A stretch of DNA of 64,000 bases from Trypanosoma brucei (Eukaryota), in contig CP000071.1 of assembly GCA_000002445.1 (NCBI GenBank), positions 1,120,001 through 1,184,000 on the forward strand. Reading direction: 5' to 3'. The notes beneath the pieces were generated by a model. That model had not been told where the DNA came from and did not search any database. It saw only the letters and a program-made list of their open reading frames with translations. Within the stretch, counting starts at the first letter, position 1; each line of letters begins with the position of its first letter. Below are positions 813 through 10,856 of this stretch, piece after piece. The position numbers were made by a program, and so were the translations under genes.

Positions 813-2264
813 CTATGCCGATTCTTGTGGCACTTCTCGGCGTGATCGCTTCTGCTTCGGTGTCTCACTCACTTCCTCACGCTCACCTTCGGCTTCAGCG
901 CTTTGAGCGGTCCGTTGTTTCTTTGCACGGCGGCGAATAATTTTTTTGTATTGTTCGAGCGCCTCCTCCATAGCTACACGGTTTGAGGGCGGTTTATTAC
1001 CCGTGTCAAAGAAATTGAGCCGCGCTTCCACCTGTTCTCGCAATTTCTCGCCAAAGACCTGCGGCGGGGCGTCCATGAAACAATCAATGCGGCACGCAAG
1101 GGCAGCTTTGTTGGCAAGGTAACGAGAAATCTTACCCCTATGCTCCTTAGCGGCGCGCTGAATGAAGGTGGAATGGAAAATAAGGCCGTATTTGGGGGTG
1201 TTGCCCTTCCGCTTTTTCAAGGCACGGAATAAAGCCTTCTCTGCACCGAGAATTTGGATGGTACTCGCAGGCGATTTGGCGAGGTTTGTAAGGGAACCGG
1301 CTTTCGAGATGAGCTTCGCACCGATGTTCTGCCCCATCAACTCCGTTAAATTGGGTGCCACAAGCATCATCTTATCCACAAGGTACTGTTGTAACGACTC
1401 TCGGTAGTCTCCAAGAGACACGACACGTTTCATGAAGCGGCGAATGTTTGACCAGTCAACCTCTGCCATATCGCCACCCATCGACGTGACGGCTTTCTCA
1501 TACACACGAGCCGCGAGAGCTTCATCACCCTCGAGAATCTCAGCGATTTGTTGCGTTACCTCCTCAGTATCGCGCTCTTCCAGCGTGCTGCGGCTACCAA
1601 TTAACAGAGCGACTTTGGAATACTTGAGTGGCTCCGGCACCTCCTTAGCCAATTCAGGAAAGTGCCAGCCGTACCATTCCTTTACGCGCATTCCAAGAAG
1701 GTTGACGCCCTTGTCCATGTGCTCTGTCAAAGCAGAAGATTGAATAATCATGTTGTCACTGCGATGAACGTTGAATTTCACTTTGTTGCGGGAGAAGGCG
1801 TGGCCGAGACCGCACTGCGCACGAAGTATATCCTTTTCTTGATGCTCGGGCAACAATTTCTCGGCGTGCAAACGCAAACAGCGGCACATCTCCACCACGT
1901 TTTCATTGCACAACACAGCGAATTTCAGCTCATCGTGAATGGCACTCCCCAACTTGGGGTCTGACACACCAAGCTCCCAGTTGGCTTCACCCTTTGTTGC
2001 CTTCTTTGACAGAACCGAAGTCAAAAAGTTATTCAGGAAAGGACTTACAATAGATTCATTAATGCAAACGGCGTCCTCCAACGCATTCTCCGGTGACTGA
2101 TAAGGTGCGAAGGATAGAAGTTTCACCCACGGGGAAAACGTGGCAAACGTTTGAAGGTCCTTCTGTAGTGCAACATCACCAGCACCAATTTCCTCCGTGG
2201 TGAGTACCTTAAACAGGGCATAACCCGTGGGACCCTCATATAAGAGATAAAGTGTTTTTGACAT
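813..2264 (-). CDS. NOP56: Nucleolar protein NOP56 (box C/D snoRNP core protein; Nop5 N-terminal, NOSIC and Nop domains)
   Basis: 483-aa ORF. The N-terminus MSKTLYLLYEGPTGYALFKV matches the Nop56/58 start. NOSIC/Nop-domain blocks are conserved: GLGHAFSRNKVKFNVHRSDNMIIQ, AGSLTNLAKSPASTIQILGAEKALFRALK, PKYGLIFHSTFIQRAAKEHRGKISRYLANKAALACRIDCF and FGEKLREQVEARLNFFDTG. The C-terminal K/R/E-rich tail ending ..REVPQESA resembles the human NOP56 tail (..QEVPQENG), not NOP58. Confidence 0.88.
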   Translation of the reverse strand: MSKTLYLLYEGPTGYALFKVLTTEEIGAGDVALQKDLQTFATFSPWVKLLSFAPYQSPENALEDAVCINESIVSPFLNNFLTSVLSKKATKGEANWELGVSDPKLGSAIHDELKFAVLCNENVVEMCRCLRLHAEKLLPEHQEKDILRAQCGLGHAFSRNKVKFNVHRSDNMIIQSSALTEHMDKGVNLLGMRVKEWYGWHFPELAKEVPEPLKYSKVALLIGSRSTLEERDTEEVTQQIAEILEGDEALAARVYEKAVTSMGGDMAEVDWSNIRRFMKRVVSLGDYRESLQQYLVDKMMLVAPNLTELMGQNIGAKLISKAGSLTNLAKSPASTIQILGAEKALFRALKKRKGNTPKYGLIFHSTFIQRAAKEHRGKISRYLANKAALACRIDCFMDAPPQVFGEKLREQVEARLNFFDTGNKPPSNRVAMEEALEQYKKIIRRRAKKQRTAQSAEAEGEREEVSETPKQKRSRREVPQESA

Positions 2265-4407
2265 TGCCTATAGTGGTTCTCCTCTTATCCCCTCCCCTCC
2301 TTCCTTCCTTTTTTCTTTTCGTGTTTTTTTTTTGCTCTCGACCTGTCCTTTTTTATTTATTTATTTCTTCCGCTTCCTGGACTGTGTATCACCTTTTATT
2401 GCTTCGTGTCGTATGGTTCAACCAACCAAAGTTGCAGTACCAACGGAAACGTGCAATGTAATAGCGGTAATGACGCGCAACCAACCAATCGAATACAAGG
2501 CCAAAAAAAAAAAACACAAAACGGGAGAATGTGAGAATGAGAATTCAAATAAATAAAAAAATAAGCAAATGAATAAGTACAGGTACTAAATATATCGTAA
2601 GACATAATCCACTCCTTCTCTTCCTCCTTTATTCTTTTTTTTTCTTTTTCAATCATGAAAGGTACCCCACACACACCCATTCCTTGCCACTGCAGTGACT
2701 TCCTTATTTTGACTGCGCAATCGCAAAACACTAAGCAGATATTAAAGAATTTTGAGGGTAGTAGTAGTAGTAGTGGTGGCGGTGGCGGTGGCGAAGGAAT
2801 AAATAATCCGCTCATAATAATATTAGTCAAAAAACAAAACAAAACAACAAAACATCGAACGCACGGACCGCGAAAAATATGATAACGCATCCAATATGGT
2901 TCTGGTAGTTGATCTGAAATAATATCGTTTTTGTTTTTTGTTTCTTGTTTTTTGCAATTCTCTCGTTTTCTTTCACAAATATATAGCAGTGAGTAAAGTA
3001 ACCCAAAACACGGGAGAGGATTAAAAAAAAAAAAAACACAACAGAAAATAGAAGCAGTAAAGAGAACTGAATATATTCGCTGTGGAGAAGGAGAGCATAA
3101 AAATTAAACGAACAATATGACGTCCATCAAATGTCCTCACCTTCTTTTTGCTTTTTTTTTCTCTTTTGCCTTCCTTGTAGGTTCGTTCAACTCTCCTTTG
3201 ATTACTTCGCCGCGTGGAAAAAAAAAATGAACTATGAACAACAAGATAATAGGAAAAGTAAAAAACCTCGTGAGGGAGGTTTGTAGCAAATAGCAACTAA
3301 CCAAATCACAATAATAATAGTAATTATAAAGATAGCGAACGGAGCCAGAACACGCAAGAGAAAAAAAGGTTAAGAAAAGTGGACAACGAAGTGAAGAAAA
3401 ACCTTCGACATGACCAACAACAACAACAGCAACACACATGAGTAAGGCGAATACAAGGGAGATGTAGTGAGAGAGAGAGAGAGATCGAGAGGGAGTTAAA
3501 GGGTGTGCGCAGAAAAACAACAGCTACAACATCACCAATAAATGTTCCCAATGCAAAAAAAGAAAAAAAAGAAAAAAAAGAGAGAAAACAAAAACAAAAA
3601 CGTGTAAAAAAAAAACACTACAATACATACGCACACCTAGCGAGAAGGAAACCACACTTTTACGAACCGTCTCATACCCAGGCGTGAATGAACAAAACAT
3701 ATTAATCCTCTTTATTTTTTTTTCAAATGAAACAAATCAAGAAATGTACGAAAAAACAAAAAGTAATAGGGAGTGTAAAAACGACGACAATAACAACACC
3801 AAAAAAAAAACGACTCGTTTTTTTTTCTTTAGTTTTAATTAGTTTTCTTATTTGCTCCCTTCCTCTCTCCGACCAAGCGAACGCACATACTCATACATTT
3901 TATGAACTTTTTCTTTTTCGTTTATTTCCCTCTCCCTAACAAACAAATATAAATCAATAAGCAGATACAAACCTCCAGCTATATATATATATATATATAT
4001 CGTTTAAACTTTCCCACCCCAACCCCTTTACGTTTTGATTTTTTTTTAAATATTATTTGACGCCGACTGCTCCGCTCAATTTGCACGTCGCAGGGTAAAT
4101 AGTATCACAAAAGGACGAATGGCTTGTAAACGTATTTTAAACACACACGCACACAAACAAAAAAAGGAACAGGAAAACAGACGTATATAAATACAAGTGC
4201 GTACGAACCTTTTACAGGAAGCTAAGAGTCAACTTATTTTTGCTCGTATCCTCCAGCTTTTCTTTTTCTTTTTTTTGTTTTTCCCCCTCTTCACTTCCCT
4301 TACTTCTGCTCTCCTTGACTTTTTTCTTTTTTTCTTTTTCTGTTGAATACCATTGCACTTTTTCTTGCATTATCTGCTGCCACCGTAGGTCGTATGCAAT
4401 AGAAATG

Positions 4408-5637
4408 TTAGGGCATAGAGGTGGGAAGATCTGACACTTCCATAAGACTATGAGTCCGCAGCATATGGTCACAGCCGAGTACTTCCTTCGCATTTGTGGT
4501 GCCATTTGAAAGTGCGAGTCGTTGTTGTATGATATTCTCTCGCTTTAACCGCCGTGCCTCAAAGCCACGAACCTCCGCCAAGAACATTTGATGCATGGAG
4601 AAGATGTCGCTCACCTCTGGGAAATGGAAAGGACCACTGCATGCCTCCGTAAGATCCAGTGGGTCATATAGAGATGCAAAATAGGGATGCTGCAAAGCCT
4701 GCTCAGCACTGATACGCCGCGCTGGATTGAATTCAAGCATACGACTGAGCAAATCTATTGCTTCAGCATCGGCAGTGGGCACCACATCACACCATGGCCG
4801 GGGCTTGCAGTGCGAGAGGGCGTTACGAAGGTAATTCCGCGCCTGCGAAGATGAGAACATATCAAGGTGGTCTTCCTCCGTGGGCGCTCCTACAACTTCC
4901 ACAATTTTGTCTAACTGGTTGTAGAATGTAGAACCACGAAAAAGGGCACGACGGTTGAAAAGCTCACCCATTACGCACCCAGCAGACCACATATCGACAA
5001 GTTTCGTGAATCCTTTGAACTGCATCACGAGTTCCGGTGCGCGGTACCAGCGGTGCGTCACGTAGTGTGTTTTATTTGGATCCTGCGTATCCTCTCGTGC
5101 CAGATTGAAGTCACATATGGTGATGTCATTGTTCTCAGAGACAAGTACATTTCCTGGGTGCAGATCACGATGTACAACACCCGCTTCGTGCAGAACATGC
5201 AATCCAAGTATGATGTGGTACATGAAGAAGCGGATGTGCTGGGGAGAAATATCAATGCGCTTATCGTGTATAACTTGTGCCAGGTCGGTACGCATGAGGT
5301 CGGTGACGAGGTACAGTTTGTGCTGGCCCGGGGGCTGCAGATGTATGAACATGTTCTTCAGTCCGAGTATGTTTGGGTGGTGGAAGTGGTTCAGCAGCAT
5401 AATCTCGCGCAACACCCGTTTGCAGAGAAAAGGATCGGAGAGGATATTTATGGTCCGACCCTCAGAGATGGTGTTGAACACCCGTTTAATCGCCACGGGA
5501 AGATCGCTTTCATCCACGCCTGCAAAAACAGCCCCATAGCTCCCACTGCTGAGAAAACGGTGCACCGTATAACGAGAATTCATCTCCCGTAATTCCACAA
5601 TGAGCTCTTGCATCAGCTCCTCGCCTTTAGAACCCAT
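4408..5637 (-). CDS. MAP-kinase-like CMGC protein kinase with atypical catalytic motifs
   Basis: 409-aa ORF with the kinase subdomains in order: Gly-loop SSGSYGAV, VAIK, alphaC E (REIMLL), HRDLHPGNVLV, DFN (ICDFNLAR), an activation loop with T-H-Y, and the MAPK hallmark VTHRWYRAPE. A C-terminal extension is typical of MAPKs. The deviations are DFG to DFN, HRDLK to HRDLH and GxGxxG to SxGxxG. Confidence 0.8.
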   Translation of the reverse strand: MGSKGEELMQELIVELREMNSRYTVHRFLSSGSYGAVFAGVDESDLPVAIKRVFNTISEGRTINILSDPFLCKRVLREIMLLNHFHHPNILGLKNMFIHLQPPGQHKLYLVTDLMRTDLAQVIHDKRIDISPQHIRFFMYHIILGLHVLHEAGVVHRDLHPGNVLVSENNDITICDFNLAREDTQDPNKTHYVTHRWYRAPELVMQFKGFTKLVDMWSAGCVMGELFNRRALFRGSTFYNQLDKIVEVVGAPTEEDHLDMFSSSQARNYLRNALSHCKPRPWCDVVPTADAEAIDLLSRMLEFNPARRISAEQALQHPYFASLYDPLDLTEACSGPFHFPEVSDIFSMHQMFLAEVRGFEARRLKRENIIQQRLALSNGTTNAKEVLGCDHMLRTHSLMEVSDLPTSMP

Positions 5638-6726: not shown

Positions 6727-7227
6727 CTAACCCTCTTTTTCATCCTTCAGTACATCTCTCTTGTCAGCAGCGGCAACACCACCACCTGTTGTTACGCATG
6801 GGGTGAGCCCCGGGCCGCTGCCGTTATAAAATTTCCCACTCCATACTTTCCCTCCAACATCAGTATATGTCCCAAGTCCATGCATACGGTTACCACGCCA
6901 ACCACCATCGTACATTGCACCGGAGGCCCATATGTATGTCCCGCAGCCTTCCATCACGCCGTGCACAAACTGCCCCGTGTAGGAGTCACCACTGACAAGA
7001 AATCGGAGTGTACCATTGCCATGCATTTCATCTTCAGACCAGTTACCTTCGTAGTGAATAAGAGGACTACTGTACGTTCCTTGTCCGTGGCGGCAACAGA
7101 AATTACTGTCGGTAAGTCGTCGCACACCACCCGTGTAGCGTGCCATTTCCCGCTGATGTACGTAACTCCCATTTTCTTCAACGAAAACCTGCTCCTCCTT
7201 CCTCTCCACCTTCTTTTTGGGTGGCAT
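6727..7227 (-). CDS. MORN-repeat protein (small)
   Basis: 166-aa ORF with at least three MORN units (YEGNWSEDEMHGNGTL, YTGQFVHGVMEGCGTY, YDGGWRGNRMHGLGTY, GKVWSGKFYNGSG). It has a basic N-terminus and the same orientation as its neighbours. Confidence 0.65.
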   Translation of the reverse strand: MPPKKKVERKEEQVFVEENGSYVHQREMARYTGGVRRLTDSNFCCRHGQGTYSSPLIHYEGNWSEDEMHGNGTLRFLVSGDSYTGQFVHGVMEGCGTYIWASGAMYDGGWRGNRMHGLGTYTDVGGKVWSGKFYNGSGPGLTPCVTTGGGVAAADKRDVLKDEKEG

Positions 7228-7841: not shown

Positions 7842-8522
7842 CTACGCACTGTTCGCAGCGTCGTATCCCTGAAGCCGTGTCTGAAGGTGCTGTTTACACG
7901 CGTCAGAGCACACGCAGTGCACGAACGGTATATCACGATGACCCGATTTGTTGTTGACTGTAACAAGCACTTCATGATCCCGCATTCTTACGCAACAGTT
8001 GGAGCAATCCACCGAGTATAACCGTGGGGCAATAGTTATGGGAGCTGCTCCATTGACCTCCTCAGGAAGTAGCAGTGGATTGTTTTCCAGCAGCAGCACC
8101 TCCAGACGTGGTAGAAAGAGAAGACCCCCGGGGAGAACACGTAATTGATTGTTTTCCACACGTAGTTCTTGTAGACTCTTCAGCTGCCACATCTCCATCG
8201 GCAGTTCCTGAAGTAAGTTGTTACCCAAATGCAGGCGTTCTAAGTGGGAAAGACGACCCATCTCTCGTGGAACAGTCGTCAGCCTGCAATAACTTGCATT
8301 AAGCCAACGCAGTCGGCCTAACTCCCCAATTGCTGATGGGAGGCTTCCAAGGGAATAGTTATTGTCAATGTGCAGTATCTCCAGTGTGCCACGCAGGGCC
8401 CTAATTTCAGGAGGAACTGCCGTGGTACCCTCTTGATAACTGAAGTGTAATGTAGTGGCATTCTCATCGAACGCCTGCTGTATTGCATTCAGGAAATTCT
8501 CTTCTGCATCCATGATCGACAC
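7842..8522 (-). CDS. Leucine-rich-repeat protein
   Basis: 226-aa ORF with tandem LxxLxLxxNxL units (LEILHIDNNYSLGSLPSAIGELGRLRWLNASYCRLTTVPREMGRLSHLERLHLGNNLLQELPMEMWQLKSLQELRVENNQLRVLPGG...) and a Cys-rich C-terminal tail. Confidence 0.6.
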   Translation of the reverse strand: MSIMDAEENFLNAIQQAFDENATTLHFSYQEGTTAVPPEIRALRGTLEILHIDNNYSLGSLPSAIGELGRLRWLNASYCRLTTVPREMGRLSHLERLHLGNNLLQELPMEMWQLKSLQELRVENNQLRVLPGGLLFLPRLEVLLLENNPLLLPEEVNGAAPITIAPRLYSVDCSNCCVRMRDHEVLVTVNNKSGHRDIPFVHCVCSDACKQHLQTRLQGYDAANSA

Positions 8523-9044: not shown

Positions 9045-10856
9045 TCACACACAGTGCTCCTCTAAGCTGACAAGTGAGGCGCCGAGCGTCCACGCCGTCT
9101 CGTAACCGTCAATTTTCTTGGCGATGTGAAGCTCCTGATCAAGAGGGTAATGAAACCCATCGCGCAGCAACGCAACTACGTAGGACAGATGTAGACACTC
9201 CAATTCAGGCCTCAGCGAGGGGTGAACACTTACCTTCCCCTTATTTTCACGACGGAGTTGCTCCACCGATTTCATCGACTTGCAAACCTGGCTCGCGATA
9301 CCGATGATATCCTGCAGACGGATGACTGTTGTTCCTGCTGTCATGTGGGGCCTCAAGAGGTCGTGGTAGAATGAGAATGCATACACGGGTCCAGATACTG
9401 CAGTTCGCACATCGGGCTGAAAAACACCATTAAAGCCACAGCTTTTGCTACTACACTCGCCACCGGAGCGAACCACATGTTTCCGGAAGAGAGCTACACA
9501 CTCCTCCATGGATGGTGTTACACCTCCTCCTCCCACACCGTTGGAAACTCCACTCTTCTCATGAGCATATCCTTGTGGAAAGCATGGAAAAGCACGTAGT
9601 GGACCGGACTTTGCGGCAGTAGTTGTCCCCCCGGTTGCCACCGAAGTCGCCACAGAAGCTAGGAGTTGCTCTCTCGCGGCGTTCAATCCATTACCCTCGT
9701 AGCTGTGCTGATACAGCTTTATCGACTTGCCATTGATGGCAAACGTGTCTGTGAACTCCTCGTGGCCCTCAAGCACCTCTGGGTCATTCGGCCGCATTAC
9801 AACCTGCGTGGAGCCTCCGCCAAGGTCAAGTATAGTAGCCGTTTCCTTGGTACCACTTAGGCTCCCGATGAGGAAGTTAACCGTGAGCCACGCTAGCGGT
9901 CCCTCCTCACGTCCCTCAAGGATTCTCACAGACCCAAGCTCCGAGTGGACCCAAAACGGCCCCTTCTGGAACTCACGACGAACGGCGTCCAGCACTCTCC
10001 CGGCCTGTTCTGCACCAATGCGTCGCAGCCCTGCGGTCGCTTTCAGTTCAATACCTACACACGCGTGCATATCTGTTGGTACACGGGCTTTTGCTGCGTC
10101 GAGTAACGGCACCAAAGAGGCAGCAGCTCCTCTGGGATCGCTAAACCCCGACAGCGGCTCGTGGTTCTCAATGAAGAGTTCATCTTCCAGCTTCAAGTAG
10201 GGTAGCAACGAGGCATGCGCACCATTTGGTGCAGAATCTATGTTATCGTATGGGTTTGAGGTCAAGTTATACCTGTAAACGTGCACACGACTGCCAGTGC
10301 TACCAGCGTCAAACACAACACTGTATCGCCTTGGGGATTTGTTACACGCTGCCAATGACGGTGTCGTATCAGCTGCCTTTTTCAACCAACTTTCCGTTTG
10401 GTGTGTAAGACTGTCAATTAGATTGGCCGCCCGTTGGAGACTCACGGCGGCGCTACCAGTCATATTTCCTCCTCCGTCATTAACCGACGGACCTTCACCA
10501 TTGTTGGAGGTCGCATCTTTTCCTCCACATGACGCCGCCGGCTCCCCAGTGCGGCCCTTTCCTTCCTCAAGGAGTTTAAGTTTCTTCTTTAGCTCATCAC
10601 GATCCTCTTTCAGGCGCTTAAGTGTCCCCGCAGCCACCTTATGAGTGTTCCTCAACATCTCTTGTTGCGAAACACACCGTGAGTCACGCCCATCCGCATC
10701 TAAAGCGTGCTCATCCCTCGTAAGTGAATGGTACCGTGACAAACCAATGAAGTAGCCTGCGGCGTACAACAGTACCAACGTCAGTAACGTAAACAATGGA
10801 AAAATAACAAAAGGCGTCAAAAAGCGCGACTGCTTGGGGTGGTCTGAGTGCAACAT
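9045..10856 (-). CDS. GDA1/CD39-family nucleoside di/triphosphatase (apyrase/NTPDase), type II membrane topology
   Basis: 603-aa ORF. An N-terminal hydrophobic anchor (FVIFPLFTLLTLVLLYAAGYFIGL) is followed by a coiled/charged stalk. The apyrase conserved regions are present: ACR1 VVFDAGSTGSRVHVY, ACR2/3-like ..LKATAGLRR.., and ACR4 ILDLGGGSTQVV. Confidence 0.85.
   Translation of the reverse strand: MLHSDHPKQSRFLTPFVIFPLFTLLTLVLLYAAGYFIGLSRYHSLTRDEHALDADGRDSRCVSQQEMLRNTHKVAAGTLKRLKEDRDELKKKLKLLEEGKGRTGEPAASCGGKDATSNNGEGPSVNDGGGNMTGSAAVSLQRAANLIDSLTHQTESWLKKAADTTPSLAACNKSPRRYSVVFDAGSTGSRVHVYRYNLTSNPYDNIDSAPNGAHASLLPYLKLEDELFIENHEPLSGFSDPRGAAASLVPLLDAAKARVPTDMHACVGIELKATAGLRRIGAEQAGRVLDAVRREFQKGPFWVHSELGSVRILEGREEGPLAWLTVNFLIGSLSGTKETATILDLGGGSTQVVMRPNDPEVLEGHEEFTDTFAINGKSIKLYQHSYEGNGLNAAREQLLASVATSVATGGTTTAAKSGPLRAFPCFPQGYAHEKSGVSNGVGGGGVTPSMEECVALFRKHVVRSGGECSSKSCGFNGVFQPDVRTAVSGPVYAFSFYHDLLRPHMTAGTTVIRLQDIIGIASQVCKSMKSVEQLRRENKGKVSVHPSLRPELECLHLSYVVALLRDGFHYPLDQELHIAKKIDGYETAWTLGASLVSLEEHCV

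What the first reader, a model, noticed from the sequence alone, without database searches (positions are those of the whole stretch)
4408..5637. MAPK-like kinase with substitutions in three normally invariant catalytic motifs (DFG to DFN, HRDLK to HRDLH, GxGxxG to SxGxxG) and a T-H-Y activation loop
The protein is unmistakably MAPK-family (VTHRWYRAPE, CD-domain-like tail). However, the Mg-binding DFG Gly is Asn, the catalytic-loop Lys that contacts the gamma-phosphate is His, and the first glycine of the P-loop is Ser. VAIK Lys, alphaC Glu and HRD Asp are retained. This combination suggests either a pseudokinase/scaffold that is still activation-loop phosphorylated (T-H-Y) or an enzyme with unusual catalytic chemistry.
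Basis: seen in the sequence. Interest (0 to 1): 0.5.

Follow-up and report, generated by a model that had tools for sequence, protein, structure and literature searches.

The report
Trypanosoma brucei MAP kinase MPK10
This is the Trypanosoma brucei copy of MPK10, an unusual but catalytically active MAP kinase; the Leishmania version has a solved structure and published biochemistry, so the odd motifs are real, conserved and already known.

Summary
Window 4408..5637 (minus strand) encodes a 409-aa MAPK with SSGSYG, HRDLHPGN, DFN and a T-H-Y activation loop. K51, E78, D158, N163 and D176 are retained.

It is not a new oddity. The protein is 100% identical to the annotated Trypanosoma brucei-group "mitogen-activated protein kinase 10" (Tb927.8.3770). 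It is about 80% identical to Leishmania major MPK10, whose crystal structures (3PG1, 3UIB) carry the same motifs. His160 and Asn178 are invariant in 43 kinetoplastid orthologues (about 50-80% identity), and Ser30 is present in all but one where the site is readable. HRDLH plus DFN also occur in deeper relatives. Between T. brucei-group assemblies the gene differs only at synonymous sites, so sequencing error is excluded.

Published work on Leishmania MPK10 shows an active kinase. Enzyme purified from parasites phosphorylates MBP. K51A, T190A and Y192F abolish this. DFN holds the enzyme in a DFG-in, spine-aligned state, and a C-terminal tail auto-inhibits it. That tail's DHMxRTxSxME motif is present here. 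The THY threonine is seen phosphorylated in T. brucei itself. The pseudokinase reading is therefore not supported. Verdict: already known, low interest.

The parts
4408..5637 (-). Complete CDS of T. brucei-group MPK10 (Tb927.8.3770 orthologue), 409 aa plus stop codon
   Evidence: ORF listing. 100% identical to the protein named 'Mitogen-activated protein kinase 10, putative [T. equiperdum]'. The gene id is taken from PMC4621835.
4678..5571 (-). Protein kinase domain (residues 23-320)
   Evidence: Pfam PF00069, E 3.1e-56, covering profile positions 1-263 of 263.
5527..5550 (-). Glycine-rich loop S30-S-G-S-Y-G-A-V37; the first Gly is replaced by Ser
   Evidence: In the 43-member MPK10 clade Ser is present in 41 of the 42 sequences where the site is readable, with one Ala. 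G32 and G35 are present in all 119 homologues that cover them.
5485..5496 (-). VAIK motif with the ATP-anchoring Lys51
   Evidence: K51A abolishes activity of L. donovani MPK10 (PMC4169501).
5404..5406 (-). AlphaC glutamate E78 (LREI)
   Evidence: Present in all 118 homologues that cover it.
5149..5172 (-). Catalytic loop H156-R-D-L-H160-P-G-N163; the Lys is replaced by His
   Evidence: His is invariant in the MPK10 clade and always co-occurs with DFN. The same octet is present in PDB 3PG1. Haspin provides a precedent with HRDLHWGN.
5104..5112 (-). D176-F-N178 in place of DFG
   Evidence: The DFN motif is described for Leishmania MPK10 as stabilising aligned R and C spines without TxY phosphorylation (PMC4169501, citing Horjales 2012).
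5062..5070 (-). Activation-loop T190-H-Y192 dual phosphorylation motif
   Evidence: pT190 is observed in T. brucei and pT/pY in T. cruzi. T190A and Y192F inactivate Leishmania MPK10.
5032..5061 (-). P+1 loop and APE, V193-T-H-R-W-Y-R-A-P-E202, with the Thr shifted by one position relative to the canonical V-A-T-R
   Evidence: The deviation is noted for MPK10 and MPK11 in PMC3100106.
4645..4665 (-). CD-like acidic docking stretch D325-P-L-D-L-T-E331
   Evidence: Read from the sequence and from the alignment to 3PG1. Docking function is inferred, not tested.
4411..4560 (-). C-terminal extension (about residues 360-409), the presumed auto-inhibitory tail
   Evidence: It lies beyond the region matched by the crystallised construct. 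Deleting the last 46 aa raises activity of Leishmania MPK10 (PMC4169501).
4438..4470 (-). Trypanosomatid MPK10-specific motif D390-H-M-L-R-T-H-S397-L-M-E400 (DHMxRTxSxME); S397 corresponds to the regulatory phospho-Ser395 of Leishmania
   Evidence: The motif and S395 are described in PMC4169501.

Best explanation
The gene is the Trypanosoma brucei-group orthologue of trypanosomatid MAP kinase MPK10 (Tb927.8.3770). It most likely encodes a catalytically competent, atypically regulated MAPK, not a pseudokinase.

Mechanism, shown for the Leishmania orthologue and inferred here from about 80% identity and identical motifs:
- Asn in place of the DFG glycine removes the flexibility needed for the DFG-in/out flip. 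The regulatory and catalytic spines are therefore pre-aligned in an active-like conformation even without TxY phosphorylation.
- Activity is gated by other means. One is phosphorylation of T190 and Y192 in the T-H-Y loop, both of which are needed for substrate phosphorylation. The other is an auto-inhibitory C-terminal tail carrying the conserved DHMxRTxSxME motif with a regulated serine (S397 here).
- His160 most probably takes over, at least in part, the gamma-phosphate contact of the usual catalytic-loop Lys. This is inferred, with active haspin as the precedent.
- Ser30 is a tolerated change at the least critical glycine of the P-loop. That ranking of the glycines is from general knowledge of kinases.

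The biological role is probably stage or differentiation signalling.
For: - **Identity.** The best solved relatives are 3PG1 and 3UIB, L. major MPK10, with E 1.5e-185 over residues 2-359. The next-best MAPK scores E 2e-83. The protein is 100% identical to one annotated as MAPK 10 in T. equiperdum and is encoded on T. b. gambiense chromosome 8. Tb927.8.3770 is called MPK10 in PMC4621835.
- **Positional orthology.** The gene order MORN, MPK10, Nop is conserved in the T. brucei group and in Porcisia. T. cruzi keeps MORN-MPK10 with GDA1 and LRR genes upstream and a Pterin_4a gene downstream.
- **Conservation.** H160 and N178 are invariant in 43 kinetoplastid orthologues at about 50-80% identity, and S30 is present in 41 of the 42 where it can be read. 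K51, E78, D158, N163, D176, T190 and Y192 are present in every one of the 120 homologues that covers them.
- **Selection.** dN is 0.14-0.25 with saturated dS against T. cruzi and Porcisia. Only synonymous differences separate T. brucei-group assemblies.
- **Function of the orthologue (PMC4169501).** DFN aligns the spines. Parasite-purified MPK10 robustly phosphorylates MBP. K51A, T190A and Y192F are inactive. Deleting the C-terminal tail raises activity. S395 phosphorylation is stage-regulated.
- **Activity-based profiling.** MPK10 was among the kinases identified in ATP-site activity-based profiling of Leishmania (PMC12816314).
- **Phosphorylation.** The THY threonine is phosphorylated in T. 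brucei, and both T and Y are phosphorylated in T. cruzi.
- **Precedents.** Haspin has HRDLH. TbDYRK has DFS, where mutating back to DFG destroys activity (PMC7136023).
Against: - No enzymology exists in the held literature for the T. brucei protein itself. Its activity is inferred from the Leishmania orthologue.
- Bacterially expressed Leishmania MPK10 shows only weak autophosphorylation and almost no MBP phosphorylation, so intrinsic activity without activation is low.
- The roles of His160 and Ser30 have not been tested by mutation in anything I could read. Horjales 2012 is not in the library.
- The C-terminal tail is only 38-53% identical between Leishmania and Trypanosoma outside the conserved motif. 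Auto-inhibition may therefore differ in detail.
Confidence: 0.88

Rival explanations
1. It is a pseudokinase or scaffold. The three substitutions would abolish phosphotransfer, and the protein would act only as a phosphorylatable docking platform.
For: Three motif positions deviate from the Ser/Thr-kinase consensus. Recombinant Leishmania MPK10 made in bacteria has very weak substrate activity.
Against: K51, E78, D158, N163 and D176 are intact and invariant. Parasite-derived Leishmania MPK10 with identical motifs phosphorylates MBP robustly, and K51A abolishes this. It binds nucleotide and an ATP-site inhibitor according to the published structures (3UIB; reviews) and was identified with ATP-site probes. 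Haspin is active with HRDLH (plus established knowledge).
Confidence: 0.04
2. The substitutions are an artefact (sequencing or assembly error) or mark a decaying pseudogene.
For: None beyond how rare the motifs are.
Against: The same protein is encoded in four independent assemblies or read sets, with 5 synonymous and 0 non-synonymous differences. H160 and N178 each need two base changes from the canonical residue. The substitutions are conserved in 43 orthologues and in crystal structure 3PG1. The ORF is intact, and dN is far below the saturated dS. Peptides from the protein are detected by mass spectrometry.
Confidence: 0.01
3. It is an active kinase with altered chemistry. His160, paired with Asn178, would make phosphotransfer depend on the protonation state of an imidazole. 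Activity would then be tuned by pH, linking the enzyme to acid-triggered differentiation. This is compatible with the best explanation and would refine it.
For: His160 and Asn178 co-occur in 52 of 52 sequences, and neither ever occurs with the canonical partner. Recombinant Leishmania MPK10 shows different pH optima for autophosphorylation (6.5) and substrate phosphorylation (7.5). Leishmania MPK10 activity rises during the pH- and temperature-induced differentiation to amastigotes. T. brucei MPK10 was detected only in the stumpy-enriched fraction.
Against: The co-occurrence may reflect shared ancestry only, since it amounts to a single clade. No mutational or pH-rate data address His160. Cytosolic pH is buffered. 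The sister MPK11 clade manages with Thr at this position, so no ionisable residue is strictly needed there.
Confidence: 0.07

Closest known systems
Leishmania major / L. donovani MPK10 (LmaMPK10; PDB 3PG1, 3UIB)
   Same: About 80% identity over residues 2-359. The SSGSYG, VAIK, HRDLHPGN, DFNLAR, THY and VTHRWYRAPE motifs are identical, and K51, T190 and Y192 have the same numbering. The C-terminal DHMxRTxSxME motif and the gene neighbourhood are conserved.
   Different: The C-terminal tail is divergent outside the motif (38-53% identity between genera). The host biology differs, since T. brucei has no intracellular amastigote stage. No direct biochemistry has been done on the T. brucei protein.
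Trypanosomatid MPK11 clade (PDB 4QNY, L. donovani MAPK)
   Same: It is the nearest paralogue (about 43% identity, E 2e-83). It is also a MAPK lacking the catalytic-loop Lys, and it has the shifted Thr in the P+1 loop (VTMRWYRAPE).
   Different: It has HRDITPAN (Thr, not His), a canonical DFG and a canonical GxGxxG. Its activation loop is TDY. It lacks the 8-residue N-lobe insertion and the DHMxRTxSxME tail.
Mammalian ERK2 / p38 MAPKs
   Same: The CMGC MAPK fold, the TxY dual-phosphorylation loop, RWYRAPE and a CD-like acidic stretch. E is about 1e-72 to ERK2.
   Different: These have canonical GxGxxG, HRDLKPSN and DFG, with a regulatory DFG flip. In ERK2 and p38 activation does not depend on a C-terminal tail.
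Haspin (PDB 2VUW, 3DLZ)
   Same: An active Ser/Thr kinase with His in place of the catalytic-loop Lys (HRDLHWGN) and a non-canonical DFG (DYT). This accounts for the Pfam Haspin_kinase hit on residues 105-184.
   Different: A different kinase family, with no TxY loop and no MAPK insert. The similarity is local and probably convergent.
T. brucei DYRK (Tb927.10.15020), DFS motif
   Same: A trypanosome CMGC kinase in which the DFG Gly is replaced. The replacement is predicted to rigidify a pre-active 'in' state, and restoring Gly destroys activity. Unconventional DFG motifs occur in 18.5% of T. brucei ePKs (PMC7136023).
   Different: It has Ser rather than Asn, belongs to the DYRK family rather than the MAPKs, and has an HxY loop.

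Membership tests
MAP kinase (CMGC group) | Complete eukaryotic protein kinase domain | tested here: met
   Pfam PF00069, E 3.1e-56, full-length profile match at residues 23-320.
MAP kinase (CMGC group) | TxY dual-phosphorylation motif in the activation loop, followed by the RWYRAPE P+1 loop | tested here: met
   T190-H-Y192 and VTHRWYRAPE. The Thr of the P+1 loop is shifted by one position relative to the canonical sequence.
MAP kinase (CMGC group) | The closest solved relatives are MAPKs across the whole domain, including the MAPK insert and the C-terminal L16/CD region | tested here: met
   All 60 top PDB hits are MAPKs, aligned over roughly residues 17-345.
Trypanosomatid MPK10 orthologue group | Much closer to LmaMPK10 than to any other MAPK | tested here: met
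   620 bits to 3PG1 against 283 bits to the next hit, 4QNY. The orthologue series P0001-P0043 is clearly separated from the MPK11 clade.
Trypanosomatid MPK10 orthologue group | DFN in place of DFG | tested here: met
   D176-F-N178. This is described as the MPK10 hallmark in PMC4169501.
Trypanosomatid MPK10 orthologue group | C-terminal DHMxRTxSxME motif with the regulatory Ser | tested here: met
   DHMLRTHSLME at residues 390-400. The motif is defined in PMC4169501.
Trypanosomatid MPK10 orthologue group | Conserved genomic position | tested here: met
   The order MORN, MPK10, Nop/NOP5NT is found in the T. brucei group and in Porcisia. T. cruzi keeps MORN-MPK10 with GDA1 and LRR genes upstream and a Pterin_4a gene downstream.
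Trypanosomatid MPK10 orthologue group | K51-, T190- and Y192-dependent kinase activity, with auto-inhibition by the C-terminal tail | not testable with these tools
   Shown only for L. donovani MPK10. It needs biochemistry on the T. brucei protein.
Pseudokinase | Loss of at least one of the VAIK Lys, HRD Asp or DFG Asp (the standard sequence criterion), or a demonstrated lack of phosphotransfer | tested here: not met
   K51, D158 and D176 are present and invariant. The orthologue is active.

The most novel reading that the evidence does not exclude
The MPK10 and MPK11 lineages of Euglenozoa form an ancient MAPK branch that lost the catalytic-loop lysine altogether. MPK10 has His plus DFN, and MPK11 has Thr plus DFG. 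In MPK10 the strictly coupled His160/Asn178 pair would make catalysis depend on imidazole protonation. The T. brucei enzyme would then act as a pH-tuned switch in acid-triggered (stumpy-to-procyclic) differentiation. Nothing in the literature I could read addresses the role of His160 or Ser30, or the function of the T. brucei orthologue.
Probability: 0.07. Interest if true: 0.5.

Novelty: already known. Interest (0 to 1): 0.15.

Why it matters
MPK10 matters as a parasite-specific signalling kinase. [quoted passage not shown] That case has already been made in the literature.

For this window, the finding only re-identifies the annotated T. brucei orthologue. The small open residue is that the His160 and Ser30 substitutions, and the T. 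brucei protein itself, seem not to have been tested by mutagenesis or enzymology.

Tried and rejected
- **Sequencing error or pseudogene.** Rejected. The protein is identical in four assemblies, the differences are synonymous only, and two-base codon changes would be needed. dN is far below the saturated dS.
- **Pseudokinase.** Rejected on the retained catalytic residues and the published activity of the orthologue.
- **Horjales et al. 2012 (Structure).** I tried to read it to see whether His160 and Ser30 are discussed. It is not held in the library.
- **Full-text searches.** Searches for DFNLAR, HRDLHPGN and HRDLH found nothing relevant beyond the DFN mention in PMC4169501.
- **Searches not run.** I did not run the large representative-protein search or a structure prediction. 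A crystal structure at about 80% identity already exists, and that library has no taxonomy, so neither would change the verdict.
- **ORFs on the plus strand inside the gene** (5053..5592 and 5105..5539), and the K/E-rich ORF 4212..4505 on the minus strand. I treated these as mechanical by-products.

Full report
**Observation.** The interval 4408..5637 holds a single long ORF on the minus strand, with an ATG start and 409 codons.
- SSGSYGAV at residues 30-37, where the first Gly of GxGxxG is Ser (codon AGC)
- VAIK with K51, and LREI with E78
- HRDLHPGN at 156-163, where the catalytic-loop Lys is His160 (codon CAC)
- DFN at 176-178, where the Gly is Asn (codon AAT)
- T190-H-Y192 followed by VTHRWYRAPE
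- an acidic DPLDLTE stretch at 325-331

Otherwise the description is accurate. The Pfam Pkinase hit covers the whole profile (E 3e-56).

**Identity.** Against all PDB sequences, the best hits by a wide margin are 3PG1 and 3UIB, the Leishmania major MAP kinase MPK10 (E 1.5e-185, residues 2-359). The printed alignment shows the same SSGSYG, HRDLHPGN, DFNLAR and THYVTHRWYRAPE strings in the crystallised protein. The next hit, 4QNY, scores E 2e-83, and ERK2 scores about 1e-72.

In the large protein collection, the query is 100% identical to a protein annotated [quoted passage not shown]. It is followed by a graded series of orthologues: T. cruzi at 80%, T. grayi, T. theileri and T. conorhini at 78%, and Novymonas, Phytomonas, Porcisia and Angomonas at about 70%. 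The series continues down to about 50% in unnamed kinetoplastid-like metagenome and transcriptome sequences.

The identical protein is encoded on T. brucei gambiense chromosome 8 (FN554971), in a T. equiperdum assembly (GCA_001457755.2), in a further assembly (GCA_003543875.1) and in one read-set assembly. The organism names for these accessions are from my own knowledge and from the source names. The window is about 99% identical to these at the DNA level, so it comes from the T. brucei group. The T. brucei gene Tb927.8.3770 is called MPK10 in PMC4621835.

The gene order is conserved. GDA1/CD39, LRR, MORN, MPK10 and Nop lie in that order in the T. brucei group. Porcisia keeps MORN, MPK10 and Nop. 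T. cruzi keeps MORN-MPK10 with GDA1 and LRR genes upstream and a Pterin_4a gene downstream. This supports positional orthology.

**Are the substitutions real and conserved?** Among T. brucei-group assemblies the CDS differs at five sites, all synonymous. His160 and Asn178 each need two base changes from any Lys or Gly codon. I aligned the 120 best homologues.
- In the 43-member MPK10 clade (51-80% identity), His160 and Asn178 are invariant.
- Ser30 is present in 41 of the 42 sequences where it can be read. The exception has Ala.
- Nine deeper relatives with a T-D/A-Y loop also carry HRDLH plus DFN. I believe some are diplonemid transcriptomes, judging from their EukProt prefixes (my recollection, untested).
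- The 68 sequences of the paralogous MPK11 clade have HRDI/VTPAN plus a canonical DFG.

His160 and Asn178 therefore co-occur 52 times out of 52, and none of the 120 nearest homologues has the canonical Lys. K51, E78, H156, R157, D158, N163, D176, F177, T190, Y192 and APE are present in every sequence that covers them. Against T. cruzi and Porcisia, dN is 0.14-0.25 while dS is saturated. Sequencing error and pseudogenisation are excluded, and the substitutions are under long-term purifying selection.

**What is known about how it works.** The DFN motif is already described. PMC4169501 (Cayla et al. 2014), summarising the crystal structure paper (Horjales et al. 2012, which is not in the library), makes two points. 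In MPK10 the DFG motif is replaced by DFN. This aligns the regulatory and catalytic spines and stabilises an apparently active conformation without TxY phosphorylation. A later review describes this as a constitutive 'DFG-in' state with an auto-inhibitory C-terminal domain (PMC7618733).

The same 2014 paper provides the biochemistry:
- Bacterial recombinant MPK10 has only weak, K51-dependent autophosphorylation.
- GFP-MPK10 purified from parasites phosphorylates MBP robustly.
- K51A, T190A, Y192F and the double mutant are inactive.
- T-H-pY and pT-H-pY peptides are detected.
- Activity rises during axenic amastigote differentiation.
- Deleting the last 46 residues increases activity.
- A serine (S395) inside a trypanosomatid-specific DHMxRTxSxME motif is phosphorylated in a stage-specific way.

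The window's protein has that motif exactly (DHMLRTHSLME, residues 390-400, with S397). MPK10 was also identified in ATP-site activity-based profiling of Leishmania (PMC12816314).

For the trypanosome proteins themselves, two phosphoproteomic reports are relevant. The phosphopeptide EDTQDPNKtHYVTHR is listed for T. brucei Tb427.08.3770 and matches residues 182-196 here exactly (PMC9633767). The doubly phosphorylated eDTQDQNKtHyVTHR is listed for the T. cruzi orthologue (PMC6380580).

Unconventional DFG motifs have been catalogued in T. brucei. They occur in 18.5% of ePKs, and eight kinases have the Gly changed to Asp, Asn or Ser. For TbDYRK, reverting DFS to DFG nearly abolishes activity (PMC7136023).

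**The other two substitutions.** I found no text that discusses His160 or Ser30. Both are present in the solved structure. His at the catalytic-loop Lys position has a precedent in an active kinase. Human haspin (2VUW, 3DLZ and others) reads HRDLHWGN, and its DFG position reads DYT. This also explains the above-threshold Pfam Haspin_kinase hit on residues 105-184. From general knowledge, tyrosine kinases also lack this Lys (HRDLAARN and HRDLRAAN). The first glycine of GxGxxG is the least constrained of the three, whereas G32 and G35 are invariant here. By the usual sequence criterion for pseudokinases (loss of the VAIK Lys, HRD Asp or DFG Asp), this protein is not one.

**Conclusion on mechanism.** This is most likely an active MAPK. 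Its DFN-locked, pre-aligned catalytic core is held in check by a C-terminal auto-inhibitory tail and switched on by THY phosphorylation. His160 probably substitutes for the Lys contact to the gamma-phosphate. The DFN, THY and tail steps are shown for Leishmania and inferred for T. brucei. The His160 role is inference only. The pseudokinase alternative is not supported.

A speculative refinement is pH tuning through His160. It rests only on the different pH optima reported for the auto- and substrate phosphorylation of the recombinant enzyme and on the association with differentiation. I give it a low probability.

**Novelty and score.** The gene is annotated. Its orthologue has crystal structures and a detailed functional study, and its unusual DFN and THY features are published. 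This counts as already known, and interest is low. The only gap is the lack of direct enzymology or mutagenesis for the T. brucei protein and for His160 and Ser30.

Noticed in passing
Proteins P0052-P0120; PDB 4QNY: The nearest paralogue clade (MPK11-like, including the solved L. donovani structure 4QNY) also lacks the catalytic-loop Lys. It reads HRDI/VTPAN (Thr) while keeping DFG and GxGxxG. None of the 120 closest homologues of MPK10 has the canonical HRDLK Lys, so the loss seems to predate the MPK10/MPK11 split.
   Followed up: partly
window 5104-5160 (residues 160 and 178); alignment: His160 and Asn178 co-occur in 52 of 52 sequences, and neither is ever found with the canonical partner residue. 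This could be structural coupling or simply shared ancestry.
   Followed up: partly
window 2265-4407; L005 8225-10632; L006 8222-11309: A long stretch with no called gene lies downstream of the MPK10 stop codon. It is about 2.1 kb in T. brucei, 2.4 kb in Porcisia and 3.1 kb in T. cruzi. It probably reflects a long 3'UTR, which would fit post-transcriptional, stage-specific control. The window ORF 2396..2890 (minus strand, 164 aa) lies inside it and is not called as a gene in the related assemblies.
   Followed up: no
window 813-2264, 6727-7227, 7842-8522, 9045-10856 (all minus strand): The neighbouring genes are all on the same strand as MPK10, as expected for a trypanosomatid polycistronic unit. 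They are a Nop/NOP5NT snoRNP protein (483 aa), a MORN-repeat protein (166 aa), an LRR protein (about 223 aa) and a GDA1/CD39 nucleoside phosphatase (603 aa). The assignments come from matching ORF lengths and order to the loci.
   Followed up: partly
window 4212-4505 (minus strand): A 97-aa ORF rich in K and E overlaps the 3' end of the MPK10 CDS in another frame. It looks like a low-complexity by-product of a purine-rich 3' region, not a gene.
   Followed up: no
window about 5452-5475 (residues about 55-62): There is an 8-residue insertion between the VAIK Lys and alphaC relative to the MPK11-like structure 4QNY (the gap is visible in the alignment). [quoted passage not shown]
   Followed up: no
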